Shown: positions 12,986-62,522 of the stretch, piece by piece
Layout: each line of letters opens with the position of its first letter
Position numbering within the stretch: the stretch's first letter is position 1
From: Eledone cirrhosa
Lineage: Eukaryota
DNA: 64,000 nt
Direction: 5' to 3'
NCBI GenBank assembly: GCA_964016885.1
Contig: OZ024745.1
Location: forward strand, 113,584,001-113,648,000
Made by a program: the position numbers and the translations under genes
Notes under the pieces: model-generated
What the model was told of the DNA's origin: nothing
Databases searched by the model: none
Seen by the model: only the letters and a program-made list of their open reading frames with translations

Positions 12986-13193
12986 GTCAGCATTCAAGAC
13001 CAAACAAAAAAACGAGATGTTGAAGAGGGCTTCCTTTAACATACCGTCTTTTGTTCTACATTATGTCATCAATGGTCAAGATTGGCCTGAAGGTGATGAG
13101 GTATATCACAGCTGGATTAGCGTCCCCACATTACTTATAAATGGACGAGATGATACATTTGCCACGTTAGAGGATGCTAAGCTAATGAAAGCA
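12986..13193 (+). CDS. ABHD8: Internal coding exon of ABHD8-like alpha/beta hydrolase
   Basis: Acceptor tttatAG at 12984-85 and donor GTAAGT at 13194. Translation SAFKTKQ...FNIPSFVLHYVINGQDWPEGDEVYHSWISVPTLLINGRDDTF closely recalls ABHD8 (FNVSSFVL..M.GQYWPEGDEVYH...VP.LL..G..D.F) and includes the likely catalytic Asp. Ends in phase 0. Upstream exons were not found in the window. Confidence 0.88.
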
Positions 13194-13679
13194 GTAAGTA
13201 TTCTTCTATTAAAACAAATTTGAATTTAAATTTGATTGGTTGAAATTAAAAAGAATATTTGGAACGATATTGTTGAATTTTAAATATTGATCACGTTGAG
13301 ATGAACCTCAAACATGATATCACTATACATACGTTTTCTTAGAACTTATATAAGCTAAATGTCAATAATTTATTCATGTATTTCGAATATATTACCTTAA
13401 CGTCACTAATATGTTCCTATTACTACCGTAAATTTCTTTATCATAGCCATTGAGTATAAAGGAATTTGCGATATTATATCATCAAATTATATCATGAAGC
13501 AATAGTATTTTACATCTCTTTCTTGAAAGGAAATAGAAAACTCGCACCAATTTAGTCTAAGTGTAGTTTCTTTTTAATGAGCACAGGAAATTATTATAAG
13601 TTCCATTGCTCGACATGAATTGTTTTTAGAATATACCTGGCCAAACTTCTTCGGCTCTTTAGAACAGAGGTGATCCTGT

Positions 13680-14030
13680 CAAACATTCTTGTGACGCTAA
13701 ACTCCGCCAGTTGCAGACTGCGTATTAATATGTGATATCACTCTCCACAAAGTTCGATCACCAACAGCAGAGTTCAAAGAGCAAAGATCAAGTCCCTATA
13801 TTGACCTCGTTTAGCCATCGTTTTGGTTGCCGGCCCTTGCTTCTCTTACCAGCCAACCTTCCTTCCTGGCATAACCTACTCACACCACGAGTTGATCTTT
13901 TGATATGGCCGTATAGTTTGAGTATTCTTTACTTGACAATTGATGTAATTGGTCTAAGTTTGGTAATGTTGAGCAGTTCACTGATACAGATACGGTCGCT
14001 GAGCCGCTTGCCAGTCATAAGTCAAACATT
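13680..14030 (-). mobile_element. Degenerate RTE-clade LINE 3' fragment in the ABHD8 intron
   Basis: Minus-strand translation ILKLYGHIKRSTRGVSRLCQEGRLAGKRSKGRQPKRW matches the typical RTE C-terminus (L.Y/FGHI.R....EG...GKR..GR...RW). Confidence 0.7.
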
Positions 14031-14139
14031 ACAGTACTTTCAATTAATTGAAATATTCAAATATATAATCAGTTTATATGTTCATCAATCACTGTTTAAA
14101 ATGTTACTAATATCATTATTTTACTCTCATTGTTTTCAG

Positions 14140-17100
14140 ACTATCCACGGATCGAAGCTGGAAATAGTAGATGAGGCTAGCCATATGGTTATGTTGGAAG
14201 CGCCGGACAAAGTGAATAAACTTATCTTGGAATTTATTTGCTCACGTGGATCCCACAAACTACCTGATGTCAAAGAATTGGCAGAGGAAGGAATAGAAAC
14301 ACCACAAAGATCAACAGGGAACGACAGACAGTTGGAGCCATCACATGGAGGCAATGAGCAAGCACCATCTCCCGAAACCTCAACGCACAAATGGACCTCA
14401 GTACATACAGAAGCCACACCGGGGTATGCGGAAGAGGAAAGGGTGGAAGACAGTGAACATGAGGAGGACGAAGAGGAGGAAGAAGAAGAGGAATACGAAG
14501 AAGATAAAGATAACGAGGATGAAGGTGAAGTGATTATCACAATTCCGTCTAAATCAAGTCCCAGTCAAAAGGATGTAAATAACATTGGAAATACTGCAAG
14601 ATATAGGTGCAAATTAAAGAAAGGTGTTGTCACCGGTTACGACAATGCGAGTTATGATTTTGAAGAGTCAGAAGGAGGTTTTTATATTTATAGAGACCAG
14701 TATGGTCAGAGTCATTATGTGAGTGCAGAAGAGTTCCACGAACTGTTTGATAAATCCAACAAGCAAACGAACCGTACGGATGAAACAAAGGATGTGAACA
14801 ATATTGAGATTAGAAGTATGACTATACCATCATTTGGAGATATAAATATATTTGAAAATTGCAAAGAAGCTTATGTTAAAGAATCTCAAATAAATGACCC
14901 GAGAGCAACTACCATAGGTAAAACCAAAGCCATTGATATTAATATCTTACCGCACAATCTCTCGCAAAATAGCTCGAAATCTTCGAACGTAGTTAGATGT
15001 GAAGGACAAATTGAAGCGCATGCTTTATATCCAAATAACATGTCCTCTTTGGACGTAAAATGCAAGAAAAGCATGAATAAACAAGAAGTAGATATCAATA
15101 GTACGCGCAACCTTGGCAGCCGTACTGTAAACCCGCATCCATCTGTCACGTTGGCCTTGGGACGCAAACGGACTGACTCACTGGATTACCTTGGTGAAGA
15201 AGAGTTAATTATCATCACATCAACGAAAGACAAGGAAAACAATTCTATGTTTTTAAAAGAATCTTCCCATGACCGTGAGACATCATCAATAAATAATTCC
15301 TCTCAAAATTCTATTTCAAAAAAAGGCATGTTGCAACAAATACCAAACAAAAAAGGTGGCAATGAATCGGACTACAGTTCGTTAAATAATTCAAGATCAA
15401 AAGAGGTGCCTATTAAATGTCAGTCATTACATTCAGAATTAGTTCAAAAACTCAATGCAAAACTGAATGTGCAAGAAAGAAGACATATCCCGGAAGCAAA
15501 TGCTGGAACTAAAAAATCACACTCTCTAATATCTGAGGAAGAGTCTGTTGGGGTTCCTCATAGGGGTTCCTCATTCTTGGAATCCAGAAAGCTGATGGAA
15601 GAACATTTTTCAAAATCAGCGTTCAAAATGAGAATTGGTGGTCGTCCAGTTATTCCACCTCTTGGGGCCCCGATCTCTCAGTATAGATCGTCGCACGCTT
15701 CCCCAAGGACAACCCAAGAAGCTTTTACATTAGCTAGTAATTCGGAAAATGCGAAATATTCAAGAGATTCTAATAAGAGGTCCCCTTCATGTTGTGGCGA
15801 GTCAAGCGTTGTCACGAGTAGCCCATCTTTCTTACAATCGAAGAAAGCTATCAATGAACATTTTAGCAAAGTTGGTTTAAGAAATCCACATTTATCATCT
15901 CCTTTACCTGAGATTAAGCACTCACGAAATAGCTCTGATAACAAAACACCTCCAGTATTTAATTCAAGAAAGAAATCCAATGATATGAAATTATCGCCCA
16001 GCATTATACAACCAAATAATGAAAATATTAATATTGACGAAACAGAGAGTCCGTCCAAATCCGGTCTTAATCTAACTGAATGGGTAGAACATCATTTACA
16101 CACAATATCAGAAATTGGTTTACCAACTGATTCGAATCCACAAGAACGTAGTCCACAAATTAGGCGTAAAATGTCTTCAACAATAAACGATAAAGAAAAG
16201 AAAATTGAAAGGCAAATGGGTCTTAGTGGTTGGGCAGAAAAGCATCTAAAATTGATTTCCGACATCATTACACCACCAACAACTCCAGAGAAAACGAATT
16301 CTCGTAAAAGCAGTGAAAGTTCTTCTGTTGATAATGATGACAAAAATACTGACAATAGACTTCTATTAAGTCGATGGGCGGAAAAACATTTAAAATTGGT
16401 TTCAGAGCAAACTCCTGATATTGCTTCCTCTAAACATACGCCTAGAGCTACTTTAAGAAAAGTTACATGTAGTCAAAATGAAAATGATACGAATAAACCA
16501 TTGAGTGTGAGTGAGTGGGCAGAGAGACATGCTCGAAGAGTTTCCAGCATGGCTACTAATTCGCCAGGTGTTGCTACACCAAATGCAGAACAAATAATAA
16601 AGGAAAGTAAACCAGAACAGAAAAATGTACATAGTAATCTCAGTGTGAGTGAATGGGCGGAGAGACATGCTAGAAGACTTTCCAGCATGGCTACTAATTC
16701 GCCAGATGTTGCTACACCAAATGCAGAACAAATAATAAAGGAAAGTAAACCAGAACAGAAAAATGTACATAGTAATCTCAGTGTGAGTGAATGGGCGGAG
16801 AGACATGCTAGAAGACTTTCCAACATGGCTACTAATTCGCCAGATGTTGCTACACCAAATGCAGAACCTGAAAGAATGGAAGAAAGAAAATTTGAATTGC
16901 AAGATGTACATAGAAATATTAGTCTGAGTGAATGGGCGGAAAGACATGCCCGAAGAATTTCCAGCATGAATTCTAACTCTACAACCAGCTCTACACTTGA
17001 TTGGCCTCAAAATAATGATGAAACAAATATATGTGAATCTACTTCAACTATAAAAATGGCACAAAAGAATCTCAGTATTAAAAAGTGGGCAGAAAAACAT

Positions 17101-18864
17101 GTGTCTATCGTTTCTGAAACAACTTCTAATTTGAATTCTGGATCCAGTCGTAACTCTGTTGAGGGGAATAGTGAAGAGCCAAACCAACACACTGTCTCGG
17201 ATATAGAAAATAAACAGAAACCTATAATCAAAGAAATGGAAAATAAACAAGGTGTTTCTAATCTGACTTCTAATTTATCTGGTGAAATTATACATCACGA
17301 TTCAGTAGCGACTAAAGACCAATTGGAGGTGGAACAGAAAATTGGGACGAATATATCAAATAATCAAAGATTTCTAGCTGACATAGCAATAGCAGACAAA
17401 GCCGAACACGTTAGTTCAGACGGTGATTCGAATTTGGAACGTCATCATAAGACTATATCTATAGAAAATAAGCATGATATAGATACTTATGGCGTTGCGT
17501 GTCTTCCGGAATGTGAGCGTAATGTCTCACGGACGATCGATAAAAGATCTAAAGATGAAGATAATAGTAAAGGTAACGACATAAATGATCAAACAGAAAA
17601 AAAAGAATTAGTCTTACAAGAACAAAAGAACATCCCTGTCAATAAACAAGAAAATGTGGATGCTGTAGATAAATCAGAACTGAAACCAGATATACATCCC
17701 ACGGAGGAAGAAATCGGTCATATGGAAGCTAAGACTTCAAAACAGAAGCTACATGGCACATCTAGCACTATTTCTGAAATATGTGAAGTAACTGAAATAC
17801 CACATCTTAGCAATACAGATCTCAATAGGTGGGCAGAAAAGCACTTTCAAAAGATTCTAAATGCCCATTCACAATCTGATCCACAGAAGCAAACTACACA
17901 AATTCAATCAACGCACCCAATTTTCGAAGATGATGAAAGGCGAAATATAAATACGCATTTAAGCCAAGAGAATACCTCTGAAATTACATCTGAAAAGCTA
18001 GAGATTGCTTCAGCAAATAATCAAAATGAAATAAATCAAAATGAAAATAAACCACAGGCTAAGAAACTGAAGGCAAAAAGTCTTGAATCAGAATCTGATT
18101 CCAGTTCGGATATGTATTTTGAATCTTGCTCCGAACACATCCCCGAATCTTCATCCAATTCTCAAATTAACGAGTTTTGTAACCAGTCATTTGATAACGA
18201 TACAGGTGATATAATAAGTTTAGCAGATAATTCACTAGCTTCTGATATGACAGGCAGCAGATTAGTTTTCGATGACAATAGCAATATAGTTGATTCTGAT
18301 ACAGATATATATAATGATCAGTTTAACACGGACGAAATTAACATAAAACAATACGAGCCAAATCCAATATTAAAACACGAATCATTCACAAATCCGCAGT
18401 CATCCAGATCTGCTGCATCAAAGTTGCGTTCGGCTTGTACACAATTTAATCCTAATGAAAATATAATATCTAGCAGCAAACTCCAAACATTAGATACTGA
18501 AAATAGTCAGAAACTCTTAGAAAGTGGAACTACTGAAGCCTCCATAACAAATCAAACTGTGTTTCGCTTATATAAAAATGATAGCAATGCTACTTTAACG
18601 TCTAGCCATAACCCTAATCTTTCTTTAGAGGATGTAGATAACTTGAACACTACACAACGAAAACTTACACTCCCCTCTGAATGTGGATTGGACGCCTCAA
18701 ATTCTACCCAATCTCAAGCTACATCATTATCTGGAAACAATTTCGACAACACTGAGATAATACAGTGTCAGACAACATTGTCTTTTAGAGAGGAAAATGT
18801 TATCGAAACAGACAATGACAACAATCTGATCGATAATTCTGAAGACAAGAGTCACATTCGATAA
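14140..18864 (+). CDS. ABHD8: Giant terminal exon of the ABHD8-like gene: end of hydrolase fold plus ~1,540-aa low-complexity C-terminal extension
   Basis: Acceptor tgttttcAG at 14138-39 in phase 0, matching the previous exon. TIHGSKLEIVDEASHMVMLEAPDKVNKLILEF matches the ABHD8 catalytic-His segment (GSHMVMLE.P..VN.L..EF). The frame stays open for 4,725 nt to TAA at 18862-64, which is very unlikely by chance in such AT-rich DNA. Confidence 0.85.
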   Translation, partial: TIHGSKLEIVDEASHMVMLEAPDKVNKLILEFICSRGSHKLPDVKELAEEGIETPQRSTGNDRQLEPSHGGNEQAPSPETSTHKWTSVHTEATPGYAEEERVEDSEHEEDEEEEEEEEYEEDKDNEDEGEVIITIPSKSSPSQKDVNNIGNTARYRCKLKKGVVTGYDNASYDFEESEGGFYIYRDQYGQSHYVSAEEFHELFDKSNKQTNRTDETKDVNNIEIRSMTIPSFGDINIFENCKEAYVKESQINDPRATTIGKTKAIDINILPHNLSQNSSKSSNVVRCEGQIEAHALYPNNMSSLDVKCKKSMNKQEVDINSTRNLGSRTVNPHPSVTLALGRKRTDSLDYLGEEELIIITSTKDKENNSMFLKESSHDRETSSINNSSQNSISKKGMLQQIPNKKGGNESDYSSLNNSRSKEVPIKCQSLHSELVQKLNAKLNVQERRHIPEANAGTKKSHSLISEEESVGVPHRGSSFLESRKLMEEHFSKSAFKMRIGGRPVIPPLGAPISQYRSSHASPRTTQEAFTLASNSENAKYSRDSNKRSPSCCGESSVVTSSPSFLQSKKAINEHFSKVGLRNPHLSSPLPEIKHSRNSSDNKTPPVFNSRKKSNDMKLSPSIIQPNNENINIDETESPSKSGLNLTEWVEHHLHTISEIGLPTDSNPQERSPQIRRKMSSTINDKEKKIERQMGLSGWAEKHLKLISDIITPPTTPEKTNSRKSSESSSVDNDDKNTDNRLLLSRWAEKHLKLVSEQTPDIASSKHTPRATLRKVTCSQNENDTNKPLSVSEWAERHARRVSSMATNSPGVATPNAEQIIKESKPEQKNVHSNLSVSEWAERHARRLSSMATNSPDVATPNAEQIIKESKPEQKNVHSNLSVSEWAERHARRLSNMATNSPDVATPNAEPERMEERKFELQDVHRNISLSEWAERHARRISSMNSNSTTSSTLDWPQNNDETNICESTSTIKMAQKNLSIKKWAEKHVSIVSETTSNLNSGSSRNSVEGNSEEPNQHTVSDIENKQKPIIKEMENKQGVSNLTSNLSGEIIHHDSVATKDQLEVEQKIGTNISNNQRFLADIAIADKAEHVSSDGDSNLERHHKTISIENKHDIDTYGVACLPECERNVSRTIDKRSKDEDNSKGNDINDQTEKKELVLQEQKNIPVNKQENVDAVDKSELKPDIHPTEEEIGHMEAKTSKQKLHGTSSTISEICEVTEIPHLSNTDLNRWAEKHFQKILNAHSQSDPQKQTTQIQSTHPIFEDDERRNINTHLSQENTSEITSEKLEIASANNQNEINQNENKPQAKKLKAKSLESESDSSSDMYFESCSEHIPESSSNSQINEFCNQSFDNDTGDIISLADNSLASDMTGSRLVFDDNSNIVDSDTDIYNDQFNTDEINIKQYEPNPILKHESFTNPQSSRSAASKLRSACTQFNPNENIISSSKLQTLDTENSQKLLESGTTEASITNQTVFRLYKNDSNATLTSSHNPNLSLEDVDNLNTTQRKLTLPSECGLDASNSTQSQATSLSGNNFDNTEIIQCQTTLSFREENVIETDNDNNLIDNSEDKSHIR
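16504..16970 (+). repeat. Coding tandem repeat, 138-bp (46-aa) unit, about 3.4 copies
   Basis: Units start at 16504, 16642, 16780 and 16921 (the third unit is 141 bp). Protein unit: SVSEWAERHARRLSSMATNSPDVATPNAEQIIKESKPEQKNVHSNL. Confidence 0.95.
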
Positions 18865-40483: not shown

Positions 40484-43010
40484 TATTAATATTATTATTA
40501 TTATAGTTGCATTTATCTTGCTTTATGTTCATACGAGTTATCACCAAGTCACAACCAGTGACCTCAAGAGACAACAAGGTCCGCCATGTTCAAGAAAGAA
40601 CATACATACTCACACATGCATCTTTAGTGTTTAGACTTGTGATGTACTTATATTGACAGAATCTTCCTTAGTATATGGGCAGTTCCCATTAGTACTATCT
40701 TTTGTATTTCTCCTATACGTGGGTTTCCTGGGATTTGCGATAAGTAATCATTAGACCCCTTAGGTATCATTCCCAGAGCGCCTACAACCACTGGTATTGT
40801 TTTAGTTCTCAATTTCCACATTTTTCCAATTTCTATCTCCAGGTCCTTATACTTGCTCAATTTTTCAAATGTTTTTATAGATACATTCTTATCTATTGGA
40901 ACAGACATATCAATTAGCAGGCATACCCTCTTTTTAAAGTCCTTCAATATTATATAAGGTCTATTTGCATCTATTTTTCGGTCTGTTTGGATGCTAAAGT
41001 TCCACAAGATTGAGATGTGATCTTTTTCAAGTATGGGAGGTGGTTGATGCTCCCACCAATTCTTTTGATGGGGCAGGTCAAAATGTTTACACATTATCCA
41101 ATGTATGTATTGTGCAGCTCTGTCATGCCTGTTTAGGTATTCGGTTGGAGCTATAGGACTGCACATTGAAATTATATGGTCAATGGTCTCTGGTTGTTTT
41201 TTGCATACACGGCATAATGGGCTGCATCCATTTTTTATTATGTTGGCTTGGTAATTTTTTGTTGGCAGACACTGATCTTGTGCTGATATAATCAGTCCTT
41301 CAGTCTCCGATTTCAGTCCAGAGGATGCCAACCACCGATGGGTTAAAGTTTTGTCAACATCAGGATTGTTAGCTCGCTCTGGGTATTTTCCATACAGAGG
41401 CTTTTCTTGCCATTTCTTAGCCAGTTTCTGTAGCAGTTCTTTCTTTGCAGTTACTTTTACCTGCTTTGCTTTTTCTGTGTTTTCCATTTCAGCAGTAAAT
41501 GGGACTTCTGAAATTTGTATTCCATTACTGTATCTTTGTGCATCTTTTGTAATGGAATATGATCTGTTGATGCTTTCGTGTTTCCAAACGAGTTTGATCA
41601 TCCAATCATGTGATTCCCTTAGATATGTAGATAATCCAATTGTTGCAGTTTTCAACGCAATGTCTAACTGGATTAACCCACGTCCTCCTTCTTTCCTAGG
41701 GAGATATTCTATCTATATCTGCCTTAGGGTGATGCATTCTGTGCACGGTTAAGAATTTTCGAATTTTTGTATCGAGCCTACGGATCTCTGTGCTTGACCA
41801 GTTGATGACATTGTAACTGTAGGTTACTACTGGTATGGCAAGCGTGTTTATGGTATCGATCCTATTCCTTGCATTCAATTCCGTTCTTAAGATTGCTCTT
41901 ACTCTGCGGTAACATTCCTTCCTTATCCTTTCCCTCATTGTCGAGTGCTTGATTCCGTCTCCTTCACAAACACCTAGATATTTGTAAGTTTTTTCTTGAT
42001 CAAGTTCTCTTATCACGTTCCCCCGATCAAGATTAATGTCTGAACTCTTCAGCAGCTTTCCTCTGGTGAACGTTGCTTTGGCGCATTTATCTAGTCCAAA
42101 CTCCATTTTAATGTCATCACTGAACTGCTCCACAGTGGATAATAGACCTTGCAATTGTTCATCATTTTTTGCAAATAGTTTCAGGTCATCCATGTAGAAC
42201 AAGTGATTAATGGTTTTGTCATAGACTTTATATCCATGTTTTGTTTCATTGAGCATTTTACTTAATGGTATAAGTGCGATGCAGAATAAAAGCGGTGATA
42301 AAGAGTCACCCTGAAAAATTCCACAATTAATATTAACTTCTCCAGCTTCCAGTGATTTTGTTTCACTTTTCAAAAGGAGGGTTGTTTTCCATGTCTTCAT
42401 ACTGAATGACAAAAACCTCCTGACAACGGGGGATATTTTGAAAATCTCTAAACATTTTTCAATCCAACTGTGTGGCAAACTATCGAATGCTTTTTTATAA
42501 TCTATCCAAGCAATCGATAGATTTTTGTGTCTATTATGACAATCTTCCAGTATCATTTTGTTAACCAAAAGCTGATACTTACAGCCATATGAGCCTCGTT
42601 TACACCCTTTCTGCTCAATGGGAAATAGGTCATTTGTTATCAGGTGGTCATATGTGTATTCAGTTAGGACTGATGTTAAAATTTTATACATTGTAGTCAA
42701 GCAAGTTATCGGTCTGTAATTTTTGGGATTGTTTGTCTCATCATTCTTCGGAAGCAGGAATGTAATGCCGTTAACTAGCCATGATGGTATCTTTTCTGGC
42801 CCCTTAACTATTTCATTGTAAAGTTGGGCTAACAGCTCATGAGACTCTGTGAAGGCATTTATCCAAAAGTTTTGTATTTTGTCTTTTCCTGGGGATTTCC
42901 ATTTGCTGGTTTTTCTTAGAGCCAAGCGCAACTGTTCAACTGTTATATTTTCCCATATTTGTTCCTCAAGGTGAGCTGTATCTTTCATTTGTCTGTCTAT
43001 CCATGGGGCA
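40484..43010 (-). mobile_element. 5'-truncated R4/Dong-like RLE LINE, young (one frameshift)
   Basis: ORF 42988-41696 is RT (KWKSPGKD, NYRPITCL, WIDYKKAFDS, GIFQGDSLSPLLF, FYMDDLKL). ORF 41655-40648 has the CRVC..ETIDHIISMC..RHD knuckle and RLE domain. (TAA)n-type tracts at both ends. Confidence 0.93.
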
Positions 43011-43024
43011 TGTATGTTATGAAC

Positions 43025-43077
<53 letters not shown>

Positions 43078-43079
<2 letters not shown>

Positions 43080-46000
43080 GGCGACCTACGTAGGAAATCG
43101 TATTATCGTGAGCTCCACAAAGGTTTGTTGTTTTCGTTTGTTTAAAATTGCCATTTATGGAAAACTTTTGTTTTTAAGTGTTTATAAGGTCACAAAATTT
43201 GCTTTCAGAAAAGGACACTCAAAAAGATTGGGCCACACCTTCCTCACAAACTAACACCTCACACCGACACCACCATTGTAAATATTACTACGTTTGCCAA
43301 CACTAAAAATATAAGCAGTAGCAATAATTTAAATTTATCTCATGCAGACATTCATTTTCCGACATTACCAATGACTGCAGGTGTTGAAGCCGCCACCCCC
43401 ACCACCACCACAGCGACAACAGAAACAAAAAAAATTAATATCTCGTGACATCGAAATAGATTCACCCAAAATCGACTCTTCCACACCGAACACCACAACT
43501 GAAACTAAAAATAACAATAACAAAAATAACAATAACAACAACAGCAACAACAACAATGAGAATAACCACACCGTGTCCTTTGCCGAAGCAGCCAAAATAT
43601 GCGAAGCAATACAGGTAACTCAGGAGGAATTAGATGAAGCCAAAAGAATGGTAAAGAAAGATGGGTACAGGGTCATCTTCACCCCCACCTAATAAAATGG
43701 AGCATCGGCGCCTATTAAACGTGTCTTATCGCATGATTAACGGCAACAAAGCCACGATCCGGTCTTTGGTGGACCACGACGGGCGCATGCTACTCGATCC
43801 CGGGCAAATGTGTGAAGCTTTTCAGCGACACTTCGCTCAGCTCTTCGGGGACAGCGGCGGCCCGGGTCGAGGGATGGACTTTAGTGTCTACCTCGACGGA
43901 CTGCCGTGGCTCTCGGCCACTGAGGCGGAGTATTGCGAAAAGCCGATAACAGCCGCTGAAGTACGGGAGGCAATGAATGGCTGCACAAGGGGTAAATCGC
44001 CTGGTTTGGATGGTCTGCTCTATGAACTTTACGTACAGATGCCAGACTTGTTCGGAGGCCTCTTGGCGGACGTCTACTGCAACTGGCAAGAGAACGGGAG
44101 AATTCCCAGCTCTGTGAGCCGAGGAGCTGTGGCGCTGCTGAGAAAGGATCCGAACAAGGGGGATAACATAGATAATTTCAGGCCCATAACTCTGCTAAAC
44201 ACAGAGTTCAGGATTTTGGCCAAGGTGCTAGCAAAGAGGTTGGCGCTTGTCGTTTGTGGTCTGGTGGGAGAGGCGCAGACATGTGCCATTCCCAACAGAT
44301 CCATCCACGACAACCTCCACCTCATGCGATACATTGTGGAGAGGGTAGCTAGGGAACCTGGCATGGGTGGGTCCTTGATCAATTTAGATCAGTCGAAAGC
44401 TTTCGATTCGGTCGACCATCGTTACCTAGCGGCAGTCCTGAGGGCGGCTGGCTTTGGGCCCGTCTTCAGAGGCTGGATCGCTGCCATGCACAGCGACATC
44501 TGCTCTGTGGTGAGAGTGAACGGTCACCTTTCGGAACCGTTCAACATCATGCGCTCGGTCCGCCAAGGATGTCCCCTCTCGTCCCTCTTGTACGTATTGA
44601 CTCTCGAGCCATTACTGCACAAACTGGAGACGTTGAGGGGAATCCCGCGCGAACTAGGATGCGGAAGATCCGTGTCAGCATATGCGGACAATGTCACCGT
44701 AGTGGTGTCGAACGCCAAACACATCGAGGCGATCGGCACTACACTAAGAGAATACGAAGCGGTGACAGGGGCAATGATCCATCTGGAAAAATCAGTGGGT
44801 CTGCAGCCAGGCACCTGGAGAGGCAGGTCCATGCCGTCGAACAGCGTCGTCGGGCGCTGGACGGACGGTCCGGTTAAATTGCTAGTGGTCTGGTTCGGTC
44901 CGGACCTCCAGACGGACAAAAACTGGGACGAGGTGACGAGCAGGGTGGCTTTTCTACCCAGAAATGGGCGGAGAGGAAGCTATATCTGAAAGGTCGAGCG
45001 GAGGTGGCTAACGCGTACATCGCGTCCGTCATCTACTACCGCCTGACCGTCGTACCTTGTCCTAACCCACGCCTGACTGCGCTGGAGCGTTTGCCCTTTT
45101 GCTTTTTGTGGAAGGGACGCGCTCCGATGGTCAGGCGGTCCATCTGCTGTCAACATCCGCTACGTGGAGGGTTTGGCATGCCGTGGCTGATGATGCGCAG
45201 ACATGCGCTCAGGCTACGACATCTCCACCTCTTCCTCGACAGTGATCAGGTGTGGTCGCCATTTGCTAGACGCATCTTTCCCCAGCTCGTCTCCTTGACG
45301 GAACTGCAGTCCTGGGTCAAGCGAAGACCGAGAGGGAGCGCTTGGAGACTGGCGCTCACAGCCCTCGAACAATCGGGCAATGTGATCGGTGGAAACTCCA
45401 CCTTGGCGTTCTATAGAGGATTGGTGGAGGGGAAGAGCGACGGCGTACTTGGGGAAACTCTAGGCGTCGACGAAAATCAACTAGCCAATCTCTTCGGAAG
45501 AACTTTCGGGCCAGGGCCTATGGACAACTTCCAGAAATCCCTAGCCTGGCAGTGCTACCGAGGAGCTTTGCCAGTTCGGGATAAACTCTACAGGCATGGA
45601 GGTGCTGTCAGCCGGGCATGTCCGAAATGCGTGCAGGGCGACGAAACCGTCCTGCACGCACTCGTCCAATGTCCGAGTATTGCTGACTTGTGGGTTTATG
45701 TCGAACACCTGCTGTCGCGTGTAGGACGGATCCAGCTATCAGCTGAGTTCATCGTGAGGATTTCCCCACCCTCTTCCTTTAGCCGGGAAGTTTTTATCTG
45801 TCTGGTGGCCATGGCGAAAGAGATAGTATGGTGGATACGTTTGAAAGGGCTGAAGACGAGCACTTACCTCTTCGGTGATGCCCTGATTAACTTTTTCAAA
45901 TTTCATTTGAAAAGGAAAATCAGGGTAGAGAGGGAAGTGCTCTCTTCCCAGCATTTTGTTGAAAGATGGGTGAGAGAAACAAGTATGGCCCGAGTGAATG

Positions 46001-46265
46001 GGCCTACACTGAGTATGTGTCTGTAAATTAAAGGTTGGAAAACTTCGAGAGGGCACTTGCCCTGGTGGTCAGGGTCACTGTGGCCTTTTAATGGGCTTTC
46101 TCCACAAATGTCCCTCGGAGGTCTGGGGAATTTTTCATTGTTATTTTTTGTTACATCCTGTTTTTGTTTTTTACACGCAGAAATGCCCATTTGTACCGTC
46201 CTGTATTTCCTGTACTGTCCTTAATTTCTACTTTATGTAAACCCTTGTGGTTAATAAAGAAAACA
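43078..46265 (+). mobile_element. Tx1-like LINE with large internal deletion (most of ORF1 and the whole APE lost)
   Basis: 5'UTR plus ORF1 start, joined near 43735 to the middle of ORF2 (GNKATIRSL.., GKSPGLDGL, NFRPITLLN, LDQSKAFD, RQGCPLS, AYADN, CPKC..ETVLHAL..C). Ends CCCTTGTGGTTAATAAAGAAAAC then (ATT)n. Confidence 0.9.
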
Positions 46266-48599: not shown

Positions 48600-49430
48600 G
48601 AACGTAAAAATAAGATGCAGTGTGGCTAAGAGAAATCCGAAAGAACTATTGCTCCTACACAACAACAAAAACATACGAAATAAGTGAGGGTACCCTTGAG
48701 ACTGTGATAGGAAAACTCAAAGATAAGAAAACACCAGGAAGAGACATGATTGTCGGCTACTGGTACAAAAAAATTATTCTATCGGAGGTATCTTACTGAC
48801 CTCTACCAACAAGTTCTTAAGGGAGATACACTTATACTAGAATGGTTGACATTAGCACAAACATTACTGGTCCCCAAAGACAAAAACACCCACTTGGCAA
48901 AAATCTACCGACCCACTGCATGCCAGAACCTGATGTATAAGATGTATACAGCCTGCCGGAATCTATTCCTCCAAGATCACTGTGAAAATAATAACATCAT
49001 CACAGATGAACAAGCAGCTGGAAAGAAAGGGGTTAGGGGATGTGCTGAACAACTCCTAATCAACAAAATTGCGATGTAGGTGCGACAACTTAGGAGGAAT
49101 ATGGCTACAGTCTGGCTGGACTACAGGAAAGCTTTCGATTTTGTTGATTCTTGGATGATAGAGGCCCTCCAGCTTGCTAAAGTCCCAGACATTATTGTCA
49201 GATCCATAGAGAGGCTGTCTTCTTCTTGGGCTACTATCCTAAGGTCAAAGACAGAGAGGGAGGACTCTATTTCCACTGATAAAATTAAATATTGCAGGGG
49301 TATATTTCAGGGGGACAGTCTATCTGTGATATTATTCATCTTGTCATTAAACCCCTTGTCCTTTCTGCTCAAGAAGTGTGAGGGATACATCATTGCCTCA
49401 CAGGAGGACAGAAATACGAATCTAACACAT
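48600..49430 (+). mobile_element. R4/Dong-like RT fragment
   Basis: KTPGRD, IYRPTAC, EQAAGKKG..GCAEQLLINK, WLDYRKAFD, GIFQGDSLS, with stops and frameshifts. Confidence 0.8.
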
Positions 49431-49713
49431 AACATTCCAAAAAGTTTGCATATACACATGTACAGATACAAAGCATATACACATGCACACATACAACTCA
49501 AAACATACACATCCACACATACAATAACATCCATATCTACACATGCAGACATGCAGACATAATTTACCTAGTTGATGTGTAAATTCCAATGAGAGAGTCT
49601 TGTGTCTGTGTTAGAAACCGACTCTCTCTCTATTGGGAAAAAATTTGTGAAATTATAAAACCAGAACATACATACATACATACATACATACATACATACA
49701 TACATACTTACAT

Positions 49714-57131: not shown

Positions 57132-60100
57132 TTAACAATCGGTGTCCTCAATAGGGAGGGGCGTTGACATGGGTCGCACACACCCCCGAAAAAATGTGCA
57201 ACCCTCCTCTTCAGGAGCACAAAGAGCGGGTGCTTCCTTCCTCTTCTCATTCTTCTCCTCTCTCACCAACAGGCTGATATAGAGAGAAGGCCCATTCACT
57301 CGGGCCATTCTCGCTACTTTCACCCACCTTTCATAAAACTTGCTGGGGTAGAGCACCTCTCTCTCCATTCTGATCCTTCTTCTAAAGTGGTACTTGAAAA
57401 AAAAGACCAGTTGTTGGCCGGAGAGATAGGTGTCTGACCTCAGCCCTTTCAACCTTGTCCACCACACAACTTCTTTCGCCATGGCTATCACACAGAGGAA
57501 AACCGCCTCTCCTTCGTTTTTGAAAGGGGGAGGCGGTTTGATCGTGACAATGTTCTCGGTGGTCAACCGGATTTGTCCCACCCGCGACAGTAGTCGTTCT
57601 ACATAGCCCCACAAGTCAGCAACGCCCGGGCTGTGTACGAATGCGTGTGCGACGGTTTCCTCGTCACGCACGCATCTTGGACAGATCTTCTTCGAGGGGT
57701 CCCTACCCGGCGCCCGTGTCTATAGAGCTTGTCCCGAACGGGTAGAGCTCCTCGGTAACATTGCCAAACCAGGGACTTTTGGAAGTTGTCCATCGGTCAA
57801 ACGTCCTACCGAAGACTGGCCAGCTCATCATCCTCCATGCCCAGAGCCTCTCCGAGAGCGTAGTCGCACTTACTGCGCACCAACCCTCTATAGGATGTTG
57901 AGGTTGAGTCTCCACTGATTGCCGGATCCGCTTGCCAGAGGGCCGTGAGCGCCTGGGCACATTGAATGTGCCAGTTGCCCACTTTTCTCGGTCTTTGCTT
58001 GACCCAGGATTGCAGCTCGGTGAGTGAGAGGAGTCTCGGAAAGGCTCGCCTCACAAACAGGGCCCACACCGGCTGACCGGTGAGGAATATCTGGAGGTGC
58101 CGTAGCCTTAATGCGTGTCTACGCATCGTCAGCCACGGCATCCCCAGCCCTCCGTTCGAAGAGTATTGACAGCAGATGGATCTTCTCACCAAAGGAGCCC
58201 GCTTCTTCCAAAGAAATCGGAAGAGCGCGCGCTCCATTTTGGCGAGTGTCTTCTCTGGGCAAGGCACGACGGTCAAGCGGTAGTAGATGACGGACGCTAT
58301 ATAAGCGTTCGCCACCTCCGCTCGACCTTTCAGGGATAGTTTGCACTCGGCCCACTTCTGGGCAATTGCAAACACCTTGCCCGTTACCTCGTCCCAGTTT
58401 TTCTCCACCTGGAGGTCCGGTCCGAACCAGACCCCGAGCAGCTTCACCAGTCCCTCCGTCCAGCGTCCGAGGATGCCGTCGGAGGGCATCGGTTTGCCCC
58501 TCCACGTCCCGAGTTGCAAACCGACGGACTTGTCCCGATTCAGCTTGGCTCCTGTGAACCTTTCATATTCCTCCAGTAAGGTACCGATCTCCCCGATTTC
58601 CGAGGCGCACGACACCGTTACTGTCACGTCATCGGCGTAGGCCGACACCGCTTTCCGCAATCCCGTTTCCAAGGGGATGCCCTGCAACAGCTCCAACTTC
58701 CGCAATAGTGGCTCGAGAGCCAGCACATACAGGAGGGAGGAGAGAGGGCATCCCTGACGGATGGATCGCGTGATTTGGAACGGCTCCGAGAGGTAGCCGT
58801 TCACCTTGACCCTCGAGCAGGTGTTGCTGCTGTGCATTGCAGCAATCCAGCCCCTGAAAACGGGTCCGAAGCCTGCGCCGCGAGCACCGCATCCAGGTAC
58901 CGATGGTCAACCCTATCAAACGCCTTAGATTGATCCAAGTTGATCAGGGCCCCACCAAAGCCGGGTTCATTCCCTACCCTTTCTACGATGTATCGCGTGA
59001 GGTGGAGGTTATCGTGTATGGACCTGGACGGGATTGCGCATGTCTGCGCTTCTCCCACCAGGTTCCCGACGACACGCGCCAACCTCTTCGCTAACACCTT
59101 GGCTAAAATCTTTAACTCTGTGTTTAGCAGAGTTATGGGCCTGAAGTTATCTATGTCAGCCCCCTTGTTCTCGTCCTTCCTCACCAGCGTGACTACGCCC
59201 TTGGTCACAGAACTGGGAATTCTCCCGTTCTGTTGCCAGTTGCAGTAGACCGCCTCGAGGAGACCGGAGAACAAGCCCGGCATCGCTACATAAAGTTCGT
59301 ATGGCAGACCATCGAGACTCGGAGATTTGCGTTTGCCGCATTGGCTCAGCGCTTCCCCTATTTCAGCGGCTGAAATCGGCCTCTCGCAAGACTTCGCCTC
59401 CCCGTCCGAGAGCCGCGGCAGACCGTCGAGGTATGGACCGAAATCCATGGCCCCACCCGGCCCGCCGCCCCTCCCGAACAGTCGTGCAAAGCGCCGTTGA
59501 AAGGCCGCGCTCATCCGCTCAGGTTCAAGGATCACGCGTCCATCCTGGTCCTTCAAAGACCGAATCGTGGACTTATTTCCACATTTTGCCTCTGTGACTC
59601 GGGCCCAGCTAACAGCTTTGGCTCCCTCGTTACCCAGAGCACGTATTTTACTCCTGACAACGCAGCCCTCGTGCTTCGCATCAAAGAACTGGTCTAGGGC
59701 CGTTCTTAACGCCAGCACGCCAGCCACGTTGCCCCTCCTAATCGCCTCTTCTACACTATTTATTAACTCCCTTTCAGTTCTATTCCTATCTGATGCTAAT
59801 TCCCGACTAAAACCTATCGATTCTATTCTAATTTCTCTCTTGAGAGAGCTCCACCACCTGCTGTTGACAATTGCCCCCGTCAAACTCTGCTTAACTAGTG
59901 TGCTAATCCGCTTACTGTAAGCTTTGTTTGTCGGTAAAGACAAGTTTAGCTTCCAGTAACCGGGTCCCTGTCTATGAGTTCTATCAAGGTTGACCACTCC
60001 GGTCACCAACTTGTGATCCGAATAGTCAACCTTGAACATTCGTGGACAGCTTAATATGTCCCTATCCTTATTTCTAACTAGGAACCTATCTAGGTACGAC

Positions 60101-60699
60101 CTAGATGTTCCGCTGAGATTAGTCCACGTCCACAGTGGCACAGTCAGAAAATCTAGTCGATATCTATCGGCCAGATCAAATCGGCCGATTAATCGTTTGA
60201 GGCTGTTACACCCCCCTCTATCGGGACATGCCCCTACATAGTCCCAACGTGCATCCAGAATACCATTCCAGTCCCCCACTAAAAGCAAGGAACGAGATGT
60301 TCCCAAGAAATTCTCCAGGCGTCGGAAGTAGTCCGGTCGCGGTGTCCCAGATGGGGCATACGCTGCCACCAGCCTGAAAGCTCCACCTTCACCACTGCCG
60401 ACGTCTAAAACCACCAGTCGACCCTCCGGGTCCAGGTGTACCTTCTGTGTGGCAAGACCCAGGTATTTTCGCAGCAGAACGACAACCCCACCCCTCGGCT
60501 GACAGAGAGATGCGTAGATCTCAAAGTCGTCGAAGATGGGGGCCAGTTGGCGCTCGCTGCTGATCCTGGACTCGCAAATAACCATTACAACCACTCTGTG
60601 CGACCTGAGGTCATTTAAGAGTTTGCCCTGTTTCCAGGACATCCCCAGGCCGCGTGCAATCACACATCCAACTCTTATATTGGCTATGTTGGTGCTCAA
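57132..60699 (-). pseudogene. Tx1-like ORF2 (APE-RT), frameshifted
   Basis: ORF pieces 60699-58801, 58837-57806, 57793-57599 and 57671-57132 are colinear with ORF2 of the 43-46 kb element. Confidence 0.92.
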
Positions 60700-60728
60700 G
60701 AGTTAAAAGGAAGAGGAAAGGAAATTAC

Positions 60729-62522
60729 TTACCTCTTCGTCTCCTGGGGACCAGGCTGCACAATTTCCATGGGGGTGTTGGAAGGGTTGTTTGGTGGGGT
60801 GGTGGTTTGTGGTGGGGTGGGGACATCAGTGTGTGGTGGGATTAGGGTGTTTGGTGGAGTGTGGGTGCCTGGTGTGGGGGTGGGGAAACATCTCAATAGG
60901 ACGCTGTTAAGTGGTTTGGTGCAGGTGGTCCCCACATGCATTGGATGGTTCTTTTTCAAAGTTACATAGGTTTCCGTTGGGACCCTAATCATCATTAGGT
61001 GCGGTTTGTTCGTTGCGTAGGTGAAAGTGATCCCTTCGGTTTTCACCGAAGGGTTATTTTATATTGCTTTCATCAAAGTTTTATTGTTCTTGTTAATGTA
61101 TGTATAGAGTTTTTGTTGTGTTGTGTTTGTTTTTGTTTGTTGTTCTTGTGCGTGTTTGCGTTTTGTAGTATGTGTTATGTTTTGGGGAGGGGTGGGTTTT
61201 TTTGTTTGTGATGTTTGTTCTGTTTGTGCTGGTGGTTGTCTGTTTGTAGCATTTTTGTTAATGTGGTGCCTTTTTTTTTCCTTTTCACGTGTTGAAAGGG
61301 TTCTCTTCCGTGTTGTTGAGGAGGGGTATATTTTGGGGTTTTGTTGTGGTTTCTTTTGTATTTGTTTTAGGTGGGGAGGGTTGGGTGGAACAGTGTTTTG
61401 TGTTGTTATTTTTGCGTGTTGTTGTGGTTGTTGTTGTTGTTGTTGTGGTGGTGGTGGTGGTAGTGGTGGTGGTGGTGATGGTTGTGTTGTTGTGTTCGGG
61501 GTTGACAGAAGAGCCTTTTTTTTTTTACGCGTTAATTGAGGACAGGCAGCCCTCAGGTGACCCCTGCTTAAGCAGTGGTAACATGACGGCCGCATTCCCT
61601 CCACTGAAATGTTTATATAAGTTAGCCCGTCCAGAGGCACGCGTTGTGGGATATTCGCTATTCGTTCTGGGCTCATTTGCACCAGAACTTCTACGCTGGT
61701 CCCACCAAATACACCTCCGGGGGACTTTCCTATTGAAATTATCCTGTCTTCATCAAAGTCAGTGATTCCACATAGTATCCACCAAATATTTACATTTGGT
61801 GTGATACTCATGATTTTTATTCTTTGCGTCCTTTTTCCCCTGTATGTGGGGAAAAAAGTGAAGCGGGGTGACACAATGGGTGATACCGAGTATTTTTGTG
61901 CTGTTGACTGGTTATTCATTAGCACCGAAATGCTACCAAACAGTTTTCCTTTTTGTATGAAGGTTATGTCCTTCATTGCATCTTTTAGAACCAGGACAAT
62001 TTCATTTTGTGATAATTGAGCTGGTTTTCTTGTTTCGTTCGATATTGTCCTGAAAACCACAGTTTTCAGGACAGCCTCTCTACATAATTCCTGTGGAGAT
62101 TTGTTGCTAAAAGCACCGTTTTCGCCAAAAGTCACGAATTGTTTTGCGTCTTGTAGTAGTTGTTTAGCTTTTGTTATGTCAATTGGCGTGTATAGTTCGG
62201 TTTTTTTTTACAGTCTGTGCGAACGTTGTTTTGGTGTTGTTGTCTTTTTTGTTGCTGTTGTTGTTGTCACTGTTGGTAATATTGTTCATGTTTTCCTTGC
62301 TGTTGCTATTGTTGCAGTTGTTGGTTGTGGTGTTATTGTCATTGTTCTTGTTGTTGGTGCTGGGATTATTTACCGGGTTTGGTTTCGTGGTTTCAATATT
62401 TTCAACGTTTTTCGATAATGCGAGGGGGGAAGGCTGCAAGCTTTGTACTCCTACCTTCCCTCCACCATTTTCTTAGTGAACGTGGCACTCACGACAGTGT
62501 GCGAGGTTGAAATGGCATCCAT
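60729..62522 (-). pseudogene. Tx1-like ORF1 (gag-like, zinc knuckle), interrupted
   Basis: Candidate ATG at 62522. N/T-rich N-terminus, core 62135-61059 with CX2CX4HX4C, P/Q/K/T-rich tail. Confidence 0.75.

What the first reader, a model, noticed from the sequence alone, without database searches (positions are those of the whole stretch)
16066..17860. Nine copies of an unrecognised 'L-S-x-W-A-E-[KR]-H' helical motif in the ABHD8 tail
Seen: LTEWVEHHLHTIS, LSGWAEKHLKLIS, LSRWAEKHLKLVS, VSEWAERHARRVS, VSEWAERHARRLS (x2), LSEWAERHARRIS, IKKWAEKHVSIVS and LNRWAEKHFQKIL. Five copies lie outside the recent DNA repeat with unrelated spacers, so the motif is conserved at protein level. Many are followed by S/T-P sites (TPPTTP, NSP, TP). 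Inference: a multivalent short linear binding motif, perhaps phospho-regulated. I do not recognise it as a named repeat.
Basis: partly seen in the sequence, partly recalled or inferred. Interest (0 to 1): 0.75.

Follow-up and report, generated by a model that had tools for sequence, protein, structure and literature searches.

The report
Cephalopod ABHD8 tail with docking helices
This likely octopus version of the enzyme-like protein ABHD8 carries a roughly 1,500-residue extra tail, absent from the non-cephalopod versions examined, with nine copies of a short motif that cuttlefish also keep; the copies likely act as repeated docking helices for a partner that is still unidentified.

Summary
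Nine W-x-E-x-H copies lie in the last exon of an intact five-exon ABHD8 gene (1,925 aa predicted); 20,000 shuffles give at most 2. Orthologous tails keep the motif: 7 copies in P0001, 7 in fragment P0016, and 4 plus one clear and one possible dead copy in cuttlefish. All 116 measurable non-cephalopod ABHD8s (of 117) end within 140 residues of the catalytic His and lack the motif. A profile search of 1.84 billion proteins found it only in ABHD8 tails. AlphaFold2 gives separate helices on a disordered chain. Best reading: a coleoid-specific multivalent array of bind-and-fold helices, about 50 residues apart, still gaining and losing copies. The partner is unknown. The best look-alike is helix A of filamin's first calponin-homology domain (post hoc, not significant proteome-wide); Axin, WH2 and thymosin fit worse. 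Phospho-regulation is only partly supported.

The parts
12986..13193 (+). ABHD8 exon 4 (hydrolase domain, putative catalytic Asp in GRDDTF). Exons 1-3 lie upstream of the window at G000:C5:113567924-113568263, 113569567-113569903 and 113573320-113573487; the GHSYG nucleophile elbow ends at the exon 2/3 junction.
   Evidence: tblastn with cuttlefish P0002, 67-98% identity per exon; AG/GT ends read from the sequence, phases summed by hand
14140..18864 (+). ABHD8 exon 5: last hydrolase helices with the catalytic His (SHMVM), then a ~1,530-aa polar, acidic tail, stop at 18862-18864
   Evidence: open frame; contig joint 13193>14140 with GT..AG ends in run X4; composition
16066..16110 (+). motif copy 1 (LNLTEWVEHHLHTIS)
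   Evidence: orthologue in P0001; W-to-S dead copy at the aligned place in cuttlefish
16216..16260 (+). motif copy 2 (MGLSGWAEKHLKLIS)
   Evidence: orthologues in P0001, P0016, P0002
16270..16293 (+). TPPTTPEK after copy 2; the final S/T-P-x-K is kept in P0001, P0016 and cuttlefish (proline-directed kinase consensus; label recalled)
16360..16404 (+). motif copy 3 (LLLSRWAEKHLKLVS), 8 of 15 residues identical to helix A of the genome's own filamin CH1
16501..16545 (+). motif copy 4 (first unit of the recent repeat)
16639..16683 (+). motif copy 5 (recent duplicate)
16777..16821 (+). motif copy 6 (recent duplicate)
16918..16962 (+). motif copy 7 (ISLSEWAERHARRIS)
   Evidence: orthologues in P0001, P0016, P0002
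17071..17115 (+). motif copy 8 (LSIKKWAEKHVSIVS)
   Evidence: orthologues in P0001, P0016, P0002
17815..17859 (+). motif copy 9 (TDLNRWAEKHFQKIL), 248 aa after copy 8; present in P0001 and P0016, not found in cuttlefish
16504..16968 (+). recent 138-bp (46-codon) tandem repeat that multiplied the copy-4 unit
   Evidence: a 161-bp contig at 14, 18.5 and 15.2 depth against 6.6-12 for its neighbours in X1-X3 (these runs may be the assembly's own sample)
   Evidence: near-invariant in P0001, P0002, P0004; predicted helix 27-42
15829..15870 (+). second conserved helix type, copy B (FLQSKKAINEHFSK)
   Evidence: predicted helix 112-127

Best explanation
The nine copies sit in a long tail that cephalopods added to the last exon of ABHD8, and they are likely a multivalent array of short helices, each predicted to fold on binding the same site of a still unknown partner, which would let one ABHD8 molecule grip several partner copies or a polymer at once. 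Shown: the gene structure, the splice into the tail exon, the tail's restriction to cephalopods among the sequences examined, conservation of the motif over its spacers, ~50-residue spacing, and gain and loss of copies. Predicted: disorder, and isolated amphipathic helices with hydrophobic -3, W0, A+1, H+4, +5 and +8 on one face and E+2 and K/R+3 on the other. Inferred: binding, avidity, and recruitment of the hydrolase domain to where the partner sits. My leading guess for the partner class is the actin cytoskeleton (a calponin-homology-domain cross-linker or the filament itself), at about 0.15-0.2.
For: (1) Chance is excluded: 9 observed, at most 2 in 20,000 shuffles. (2) Selection on the motif: core against spacer identity is 63/84 vs 202/429 for P0001 (p = 2.4e-6) and 71/84 vs 186/402 for P0016 (p = 5e-11). 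For cuttlefish P0002 it is 43/107 vs 97/434 (p = 3e-4), although that alignment puts several copies out of register. Spacers of old paralogous units are mostly 13-37% identical (41% for one pair), while spacers of the four clearly orthologous units are 44-61% identical between the window and the other two octopus-like proteins. Among 7 of the 9 window copies (5 and 6 left out as duplicates), 43 of 101 same-residue codon pairs use different codons. (3) Positions outside my search pattern are also fixed: -3 is L/V/I in 27 of 27, +8 is I/V/L in 27 of 27, +1 is A in 24 of 27, +9 is S in 21 of 27 (W and H are fixed by the pattern itself). (4) AlphaFold2 on a 7-row alignment: mean pLDDT 41.7, pTM 0.17, one helix at each of the 8 copies in the modelled stretch, coil between most of them. 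Hydrophobic moments are in the top 8% of tail 12-mers. (5) Turnover typical of avidity arrays: 9, 7, at least 7 and 4 copies; the copy-4 unit was duplicated separately in the window (spacers 62-96% alike) and in P0016 (80%), with 24-40% between the two lineages; cuttlefish has a W-to-S copy scoring 17.7 bits. (6) The tail is in spliced form: X4 joins exon 4 to exon 5 and has pieces along the tail including copy 1. Seven cuttlefish Logan contigs of 5.4-6.8 kb each hold the whole 1,647-aa frame with hydrolase and motifs, while the five exons here span about 35 kb, so these contigs are inferred to be mRNA. (7) Human ABHD8 is reported to act as a scaffold that recruits zDHHC12 to NLRP3 (PMC13625376, passages read), so a scaffolding extension fits the family.
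Against: No partner is identified and no binding is measured. Only four independent proteins carry the motif, two of them from unnamed records. No protein-level evidence that the tail is made. The AlphaFold2 alignment is shallow (7 rows, some near-identical), so a folded repeat could be missed. The cytoskeletal guess rests on one look-alike chosen after the fact: 15.8 bits, P = 7.7e-7 per window, about 8 such windows expected in a 10-million-residue proteome, and its Asn and Glu mismatch the motif's E+2 and K/R+3. S/T-P enrichment is weak in orthologues.
Confidence: 0.75

Rival explanations
1. Specific form of the best reading: each copy mimics helix A (ABS1) of the first calponin-homology domain of filamin-type cross-linkers and would bind where that helix normally packs, against CH2, opening the actin-binding domain and tying ABHD8 to actin networks.
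For: The genome's own filamin helix A (L127) is the best of 26 candidate loci scored: 15.8 bits against a maximum of 7.6 in 33,322 control windows, with 8 of 15 residues identical to copy 3. ABS1 is described as hidden between CH1 and CH2, and CH2 as a negative steric regulator (PMC10046292, passages read). Trp of helix I is among the most conserved CH residues (PMC7240100, passages read).
Against: The family was chosen from memory before scoring; about 8 equal windows are expected per 10 million residues. The other 14 CH loci scored 6.2 bits or less, and the spectrin-like helix A 4.5 bits. The near-invariant E+2 (26 of 27) is Asn in filamin. I know no precedent (recall) for a free peptide displacing a 2,000-2,700 square-angstrom CH1-CH2 interface (sizes from PMC11883666, passages read).
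Confidence: 0.12
2. The copies are Axin-like helices that bind the ARM3-4 groove of beta-catenin, making the tail a multivalent beta-catenin sponge or scaffold.
For: The genome's own Axin catenin-binding helix (L009, PF08833, 57 bits) has acid-x-His-small-x-Arg-Ile in the same register as E+2, H+4, +7 and +8, followed by S/T-P sites. In human AXIN1, D472, H474, V475 and V478 matter for binding (PMC13364647 and PMC11063763, passages read). An Axin-shaped pattern that I fitted by eye matched 15 places in four tails and 0 in 55,066 control residues (circular, since it was built on the motif).
Against: Axin scores -4.5 bits on the motif profile (P = 0.01 per window). The position of L471 is Ala in 24 of 27 copies, and L471A is part of the binding-dead triple mutant. 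The position of V475 is Ala in 10 of 27, and V475A markedly weakens binding. The position of L479 is Ser in 21 of 27. PF08833 did not list the window among its genome matches.
Confidence: 0.04
3. The tail is a tolerated by-product of a repeat-prone genome (stop-codon loss plus slippage), and the motif is only the footprint of old tandem duplications.
For: The spacing near 50 residues suggests an origin by duplication of a ~50-codon unit; recent 138-bp duplication; large length changes between species.
Against: Spacers of old paralogous units have decayed to background while the cores are kept; a 4.7-kb frame stays open; other short islands are near-invariant between the window and cuttlefish.
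Confidence: 0.05
4. The helices recruit signalling enzymes or sensors: PP2A-B56 through the LxxIxE-like C-terminal half, PKA as an AKAP-like helix or R-R-x-S substrate, or calmodulin through the Trp anchor (consensus patterns recalled).
For: [LMFI]-x-x-[ILV]-x-E overlaps window copies 1 and 3, and R-R-x-S overlaps copies 4-7; E at +10 in 12 of 27 copies.
Against: Neither pattern covers the shared core W-A-E-x-H; the cuttlefish counterpart of copy 7 has Asp at the Ser position; several copies are near neutral in charge, unlike typical calmodulin targets (recalled). AKAP and calmodulin-target families were not scored.
Confidence: 0.1
5. The helices bind membranes or lipid droplets, or pack with each other or on the protein's own hydrolase domain, rather than on another protein.
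For: High hydrophobic moment; the host is a lipid-hydrolase-family protein.
Against: Near-fixed E+2 and a His on the hydrophobic face suggest a shaped site, not a bilayer (inference); mean hydrophobicity is low (-0.45 to 0.22); AlphaFold2 gave pTM 0.17 for the array. Docking on the own hydrolase domain was not tested.
Confidence: 0.1

Closest known systems
ABHD8 (alpha/beta hydrolase domain protein 8; Pfam PF00561/PF12697/PF12146); cuttlefish record CAE1309496.1 named ABHD8
   Same: Hydrolase exons 88-98% identical to cuttlefish ABHD8 (exon 1, 67%); cuttlefish domain 38-57% identical to other animal ABHD8s; GHSYG and SHMVM motifs as in 95 of 116 proteins counted.
   Different: About 1,560 residues (window) and 1,278 (cuttlefish) after the catalytic His, against at most 140 (median 51) in 116 of 117 non-cephalopod hits; none of those 117 has W-x-[ED]-[KRH]-H.
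Multivalent short-helix or short-linear-motif arrays in disordered scaffolds (as a class; e.g. APC's 15- and 20-residue repeats, PMC13364647 passages; WH2 arrays, recalled)
   Same: Repeated short conserved motif, divergent spacers, predicted disorder, variable copy number, flanking phospho-sites.
   Different: The sequence matches no described motif found here; partner unknown; fused to a hydrolase domain.
Helix A / ABS1 of filamin CH1
   Same: Same spacing of hydrophobic residue, W, A, H, L and V; 8 of 15 identities with copy 3.
   Different: In filamin the helix is part of a folded ~110-residue domain; here it stands alone in a disordered chain, and E+2 replaces Asn.
Axin catenin-binding helix (PF08833)
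   Same: Acid-x-His and a later beta-branched residue in the same register; S/T-P sites downstream.
   Different: Key hydrophobic positions L471 and L479 are mostly Ala and Ser here; profile score -4.5 bits.

Membership tests
ABHD8 orthologues | alpha/beta hydrolase domain whose closest named relatives are ABHD8 | tested here: met
   (similarity only; no tree was built)
ABHD8 orthologues | nucleophile elbow G-H-S-Y-G and His motif H-M-V-M intact | tested here: met
ABHD8 orthologues | enzyme activity or zDHHC-recruiting scaffold role | not testable with these tools
   needs assays; human role from PMC13625376 passages
Multivalent bind-and-fold helix array | repeated motif conserved above its spacers | tested here: met
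Multivalent bind-and-fold helix array | embedded in disorder as isolated helices | tested here: met
   prediction only: (pLDDT 41.7, pTM 0.17, shallow alignment); composition
Multivalent bind-and-fold helix array | binds a partner, with avidity rising with copy number | not testable with these tools
   needs pull-down and affinity measurement
Calponin-homology domain (PF00307) | full ~110-residue helical domain including the DGxxLxxL helix | tested here: not met
   no PF00307 match in the tail; the window is not among the 37 genome matches listed; only the helix-A pattern is shared
CH1 helix-A mimic (works-like claim) | sequence likeness to helix A beyond proteome-wide chance | tested here: inconclusive
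   15.8 bits, P = 7.7e-7 per window, about 8 expected per 10 million residues, chosen post hoc
Axin catenin-binding helix (PF08833) | hydrophobic L471, V475, V478, L479 with D472 and H474 | tested here: not met
   acid, His and V478 positions fit; L471 position is Ala in 24 of 27 and L479 position Ser in 21 of 27
WH2 / beta-thymosin (PF02205, PF01290) | amphipathic helix followed by L-K-K-[TV]-like strand; family profile match | tested here: not met
   no Pfam match; the 10 WH2 and thymosin loci of the genome score 1.2 bits or less on the motif profile; Leu at +5 in only 8 of 27 copies
AKAP helix / calmodulin target / PP2A-B56 motif | family consensus present in all copies | tested here: inconclusive
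   B56-like pattern in 2 of 9 window copies; AKAP and calmodulin families were not scored; consensus patterns are recalled

The most novel reading that the evidence does not exclude
Coleoid cephalopods evolved a free, repeated mimic of filamin's CH1 helix A on the tail of ABHD8: a multivalent key that pries open tandem calponin-homology actin-binding domains and ties a lipid or palmitoylation enzyme scaffold to the actin cytoskeleton, with copy number tuned lineage by lineage.
Probability: 0.1. Interest if true: 0.75.

Novelty: new variant of a known kind. Interest (0 to 1): 0.42.

Why it matters
ABHD8 is a small, poorly understood hydrolase-fold protein in most animals. In coleoid cephalopods it has gained a tail several times its own size with an undescribed, strongly selected, copy-number-variable motif and several other conserved islands. 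This is a clear case of a lineage-specific scaffold built on an old enzyme, and the W-to-A design makes the partner easy to find. If the partner is cytoskeletal or a signalling hub, it would point to a cephalopod-specific link between lipid or palmitoylation chemistry and cell architecture. Until a partner is found it is a well-supported but unexplained motif.

Tried and rejected
Pfam scans of the tail, the array and 8 of the 9 copies (copy 6 left out as a near-duplicate of copy 5): only sub-threshold hits such as Colicin_E5, DUF3579, Exc. PDB sequence searches with the array and the profile: no meaningful hit (titin, acyloxyacyl hydrolase, PVL lectin at E 0.08-1.3). Profile search of 1.84 billion representatives: 5 hits; P0016 and P0001 are ABHD8 tails, and P0017-P0019 lack the Trp and look like translated DNA repeats. 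The cuttlefish proteins, which score about 95 bits locally on a related profile, were not returned, so that library hides members behind representatives and absence there is no proof. ESM Atlas with P0004 parts: best scores 0.75-0.76, below what shuffled proteins often reach; leads only (DUF4592, LIMCH1 DUF4757). Complex prediction of a stand-in beta-catenin ARM1-6 (L045, 216 identities over the 253 residues of the genome's own exons) with copy 3: no answer, score 0.02, alignments not used, controls not folded, untested for peptides; no evidence either way. Sequencing runs: no RNA holder listed; X4 behaves like RNA (exon-only pieces, one splice joint) but has no cover over 16336-17219 and shows no joints for exons 2-3, which proves nothing. 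Own-genome search for a second array: the protein query found only this locus; a DNA pattern gave 233 matches, of which only the first 100 (contigs C1-C3) were listed; of two clusters seen, the one at C1:104.88 Mb is a non-coding satellite and the four alternating-strand matches at C1:275.70 Mb were not opened. A 46-residue predicted beta-sheet island early in the tail (pLDDT 66-75) gave no fold match at Z 5 or more (best 4.1). Maspardin, which by my recognition is fused to ABHD8 in several mollusc gene models, was not found in the 39 kb upstream or the window. An anchored window-to-cuttlefish re-count could not be run. Literature: 'ABHD8' (155 papers, 30 listed), 'cephalopod + ABHD8' (0), 'octopus + ABHD8' (0), 'cephalopod + intrinsically disordered + short linear motif + repeat' (3, unrelated by title). 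The primary ABHD8-NLRP3, Axin-beta-catenin crystal and filamin cryo-EM papers were not held. Most subscription papers and all supplements were not seen, so 'undescribed' holds only for these searches.
Full report
1. Observation. The region lies in one open frame, 13729-18864 on the + strand. All nine peptides are there, with Trp codons at 16081, 16231, 16375, 16516, 16654, 16792, 16933, 17086 and 17830, spaced 50, 48, 47, 46, 46, 47, 51 and 248 residues apart. Nine of the exon's 11 Trp belong to the motif. W-x-E-x-H appeared at most twice in 20,000 shuffles. A 138-bp tandem repeat (16504-16968, 3.3 copies) holds copies 4-7; five copies lie outside it.

2. The gene. The window holds exons 4 (12986-13193) and 5 (14140-18864) of ABHD8. 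Exons 1-3 lie 10-16 kb upstream of the window. From the splice sites printed I summed the exon lengths by hand: 340 + 337 + 168 + 208 bases give 351 codons in frame with exon 5, so the predicted protein has 1,925 residues. GHSYG, the Asp region and SHMVM are intact. A contig of run X4 joins 13193 to 14140 with GT..AG ends, and X4 has pieces along the tail, including copy 1. The organism is not given; I infer an octopus from the 3.0-Gb microsatellite-rich genome and from cuttlefish being the closest named relative at 30% identity over the exon.

3. Relatives. The tail search returned P0001 (1,459 aa, unnamed) and P0002 (1,647 aa), 2 hits among 7,979 candidates scored. P0002's cluster holds a record named ABHD8 of Sepia (Acanthosepion) pharaonis and seven Logan contigs of 5.4-6.8 kb that each carry the whole frame. 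As the exons here span about 35 kb, I infer these are spliced transcripts with hydrolase and tail in one frame. The motif profile against 1.84 billion representatives added P0016 (842-aa fragment); its other three hits lack the Trp. Copy numbers are 9 (window), 7 (P0001), 7 in the P0016 fragment, and 4 in cuttlefish, which also has one clear W-to-S copy (17.7 bits) and one doubtful one (-2.5 bits). With the hydrolase domain as query, the 905-2,883-aa search returned only P0002 itself; longer proteins were not searched. The shorter search gave 129 hits, 120 listed. After dropping three cuttlefish fragments, 116 of 117 could be measured: all end within 140 residues of the catalytic His (median 51), and none of the 117 has the motif. 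They include chiton, gastropods, bivalves, annelids, echinoderms, lancelets and vertebrates. Nautilus and squids were not among them, so the tail is coleoid-specific only as far as this sample goes. The octopus-cuttlefish split is roughly 270 million years old (recalled).

4. Selection. Core (12 residues) against spacer identity is 63/84 vs 202/429 for P0001, 71/84 vs 186/402 for P0016, 43/107 vs 97/434 for P0002 and 37/95 vs 112/427 for P0004 (p = 2.4e-6, 5e-11, 3e-4, 0.017). The cuttlefish alignments are partly out of register, which works against the test; an anchored re-count could not be run. Spacers of old paralogous units are mostly 13-37% identical (one pair 41%), those of the four clearly orthologous units 44-61% between the window and P0001 or P0016; the copy-4 unit is an exception at 24-40%. 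Over 27 copies, positions outside my search pattern are fixed too: -3 hydrophobic 27/27, +8 I/V/L 27/27, +1 Ala 24/27, +9 Ser 21/27. The copy-4 unit was duplicated separately in the window and in P0016.

5. Shape. AlphaFold2 on 557 residues with 7 rows gave mean pLDDT 41.7 and pTM 0.17, with a helix at each of the eight copies in that stretch, at two further conserved motifs, and at one spacer. The tail has 23% order-promoting residues against 42% in the cuttlefish hydrolase domain, and a net charge of -64. Positions -3, 0, +1, +4, +5 and +8 form one helical face. It shares the His register but scores only -0.9 to 2.7 bits on the motif profile, so kinship is not shown.

6. Phospho-sites. S/T-P follows 6 of 9 window copies (p = 1.4e-6, inflated by the triplicated unit), 3 of 7, 4 of 7 and 3 of 4 in P0001, P0016 and P0002 (p = 0.053, 0.026, 0.15). 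The cluster after copy 2, ending in S/T-P-x-K, is kept in all four. R-R-x-S covers window copies 4-7, but the cuttlefish counterpart of copy 7 has Asp there. Regulation by phosphorylation is plausible for single copies and not shown for the array.

7. Mechanism. Best reading (0.75): a multivalent array of helices that fold on binding one kind of site, giving avidity and carrying the hydrolase domain to the partner. Gene structure, conservation and turnover are shown; helix and disorder are predicted; binding is inferred. Human ABHD8 is reported to scaffold zDHHC12 and NLRP3, with no depalmitoylase activity reported (PMC13625376, passages only).

8. Look-alikes. I recalled four resemblances and scored three kinds with sequences from this genome, using a profile of 28 distinct 15-mers on 26 loci (1 Axin, 15 CH, 5 WH2, 5 thymosin). 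Filamin CH1 helix A (L127, named filamin from recall of its sequence pattern) scored 15.8 bits, above all 33,322 control windows (maximum 7.6), with 8 of 15 identities to copy 3. True copies score 32-44. Its chance is 7.7e-7 per window, or about 8 per 10 million residues, and I chose the family beforehand from memory, so it is a lead. ABS1 is described as hidden between CH1 and CH2 (PMC10046292, passages), so a free mimic would more likely bind CH2 than actin. Axin's helix scored -4.5 bits. It shares the acid, His and V478 positions but not L471 or L479, which matter in human AXIN1 (PMC13364647 and PMC11063763, passages); the mapping of human numbers onto the Axin of this genome is mine. WH2 and thymosin loci scored 1.2 bits or less. 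AKAP and calmodulin targets were not scored.

9. Novelty. No Pfam family or PDB sequence matched at threshold. Searches for cephalopod or octopus with ABHD8 found no paper in the held library; subscription papers and supplements were not seen. This scan holds no note on look-alike DNA. The kind of system, a repeated short helix in a disordered scaffold, is well known; the motif and its place on ABHD8 appear to be undescribed. Verdict: real, selected, lineage-specific, partner unknown; new variant of a known kind; interest 0.42.

Noticed in passing
window 14617-14754: A 46-residue island early in the tail, conserved to cuttlefish in its second half, is predicted as a small four-strand sheet plus helix (pLDDT 66-75); possibly a cephalopod-specific mini-domain.
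   Followed up: partly
window 15145-15216: Island VTLALGRKRTDSLDYLGEEELIII is near-invariant to cuttlefish and holds an R-x-R-x-x-S basophilic kinase or 14-3-3-type site (label recalled).
   Followed up: no
window 15427-15453: Short conserved helix LHSELVQKL (cuttlefish LHMELLAKV), reminiscent of the start of some WH2 helices (recalled) but without a following LKK-type strand.
   Followed up: no
window 16264-16293: IITPPTTPEK after copy 2 fits an Fbw7-type phosphodegron pattern (recalled) in the window, P0001 and P0016; cuttlefish has a Ser-Pro version.
   Followed up: partly
P0021, P0022, P0029, P0030, P0032, P0036, P0037, P0039, P0041, P0047 (C-termini): Non-cephalopod mollusc ABHD8s end in a short conserved S-x-[KR]-S-x-K-S-like basic tail that I did not see in the cephalopod proteins; the long tail may have replaced it.
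   Followed up: no
P0022, P0023, P0024, P0029, P0032, P0038: Gene models in a chiton, bivalves and gastropods fuse a ~300-aa second hydrolase (maspardin-like by my recognition) in front of ABHD8, suggesting an old neighbour or read-through; no such gene was found within 39 kb upstream here.
   Followed up: partly
window 40651-43102 (-), 43655-46023 (+), 57135-62207 (-), 49080-49559 (+): Retrotransposon reading frames (reverse transcriptase, endonuclease and ORF1-like) downstream of ABHD8.
   Followed up: no
L041:4534-4785 (G000:C3): The intron before the ARM3-4 exon of beta-catenin holds a decayed partial duplicate of that exon's start in the same frame.
   Followed up: no
G000:C2:356780679 and G000:C4:193431653; G000:C18:7.1-9.8 Mb: An identical ARM exon on two contigs (L027, L028) and six like-sized CH-domain exons clustered on C18: recent duplications or assembly redundancy.
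   Followed up: no
L124 (G000:C1:104886001-104896000): A ~30-bp satellite array that mimics the motif's codons by chance; no long open frame.
   Followed up: yes
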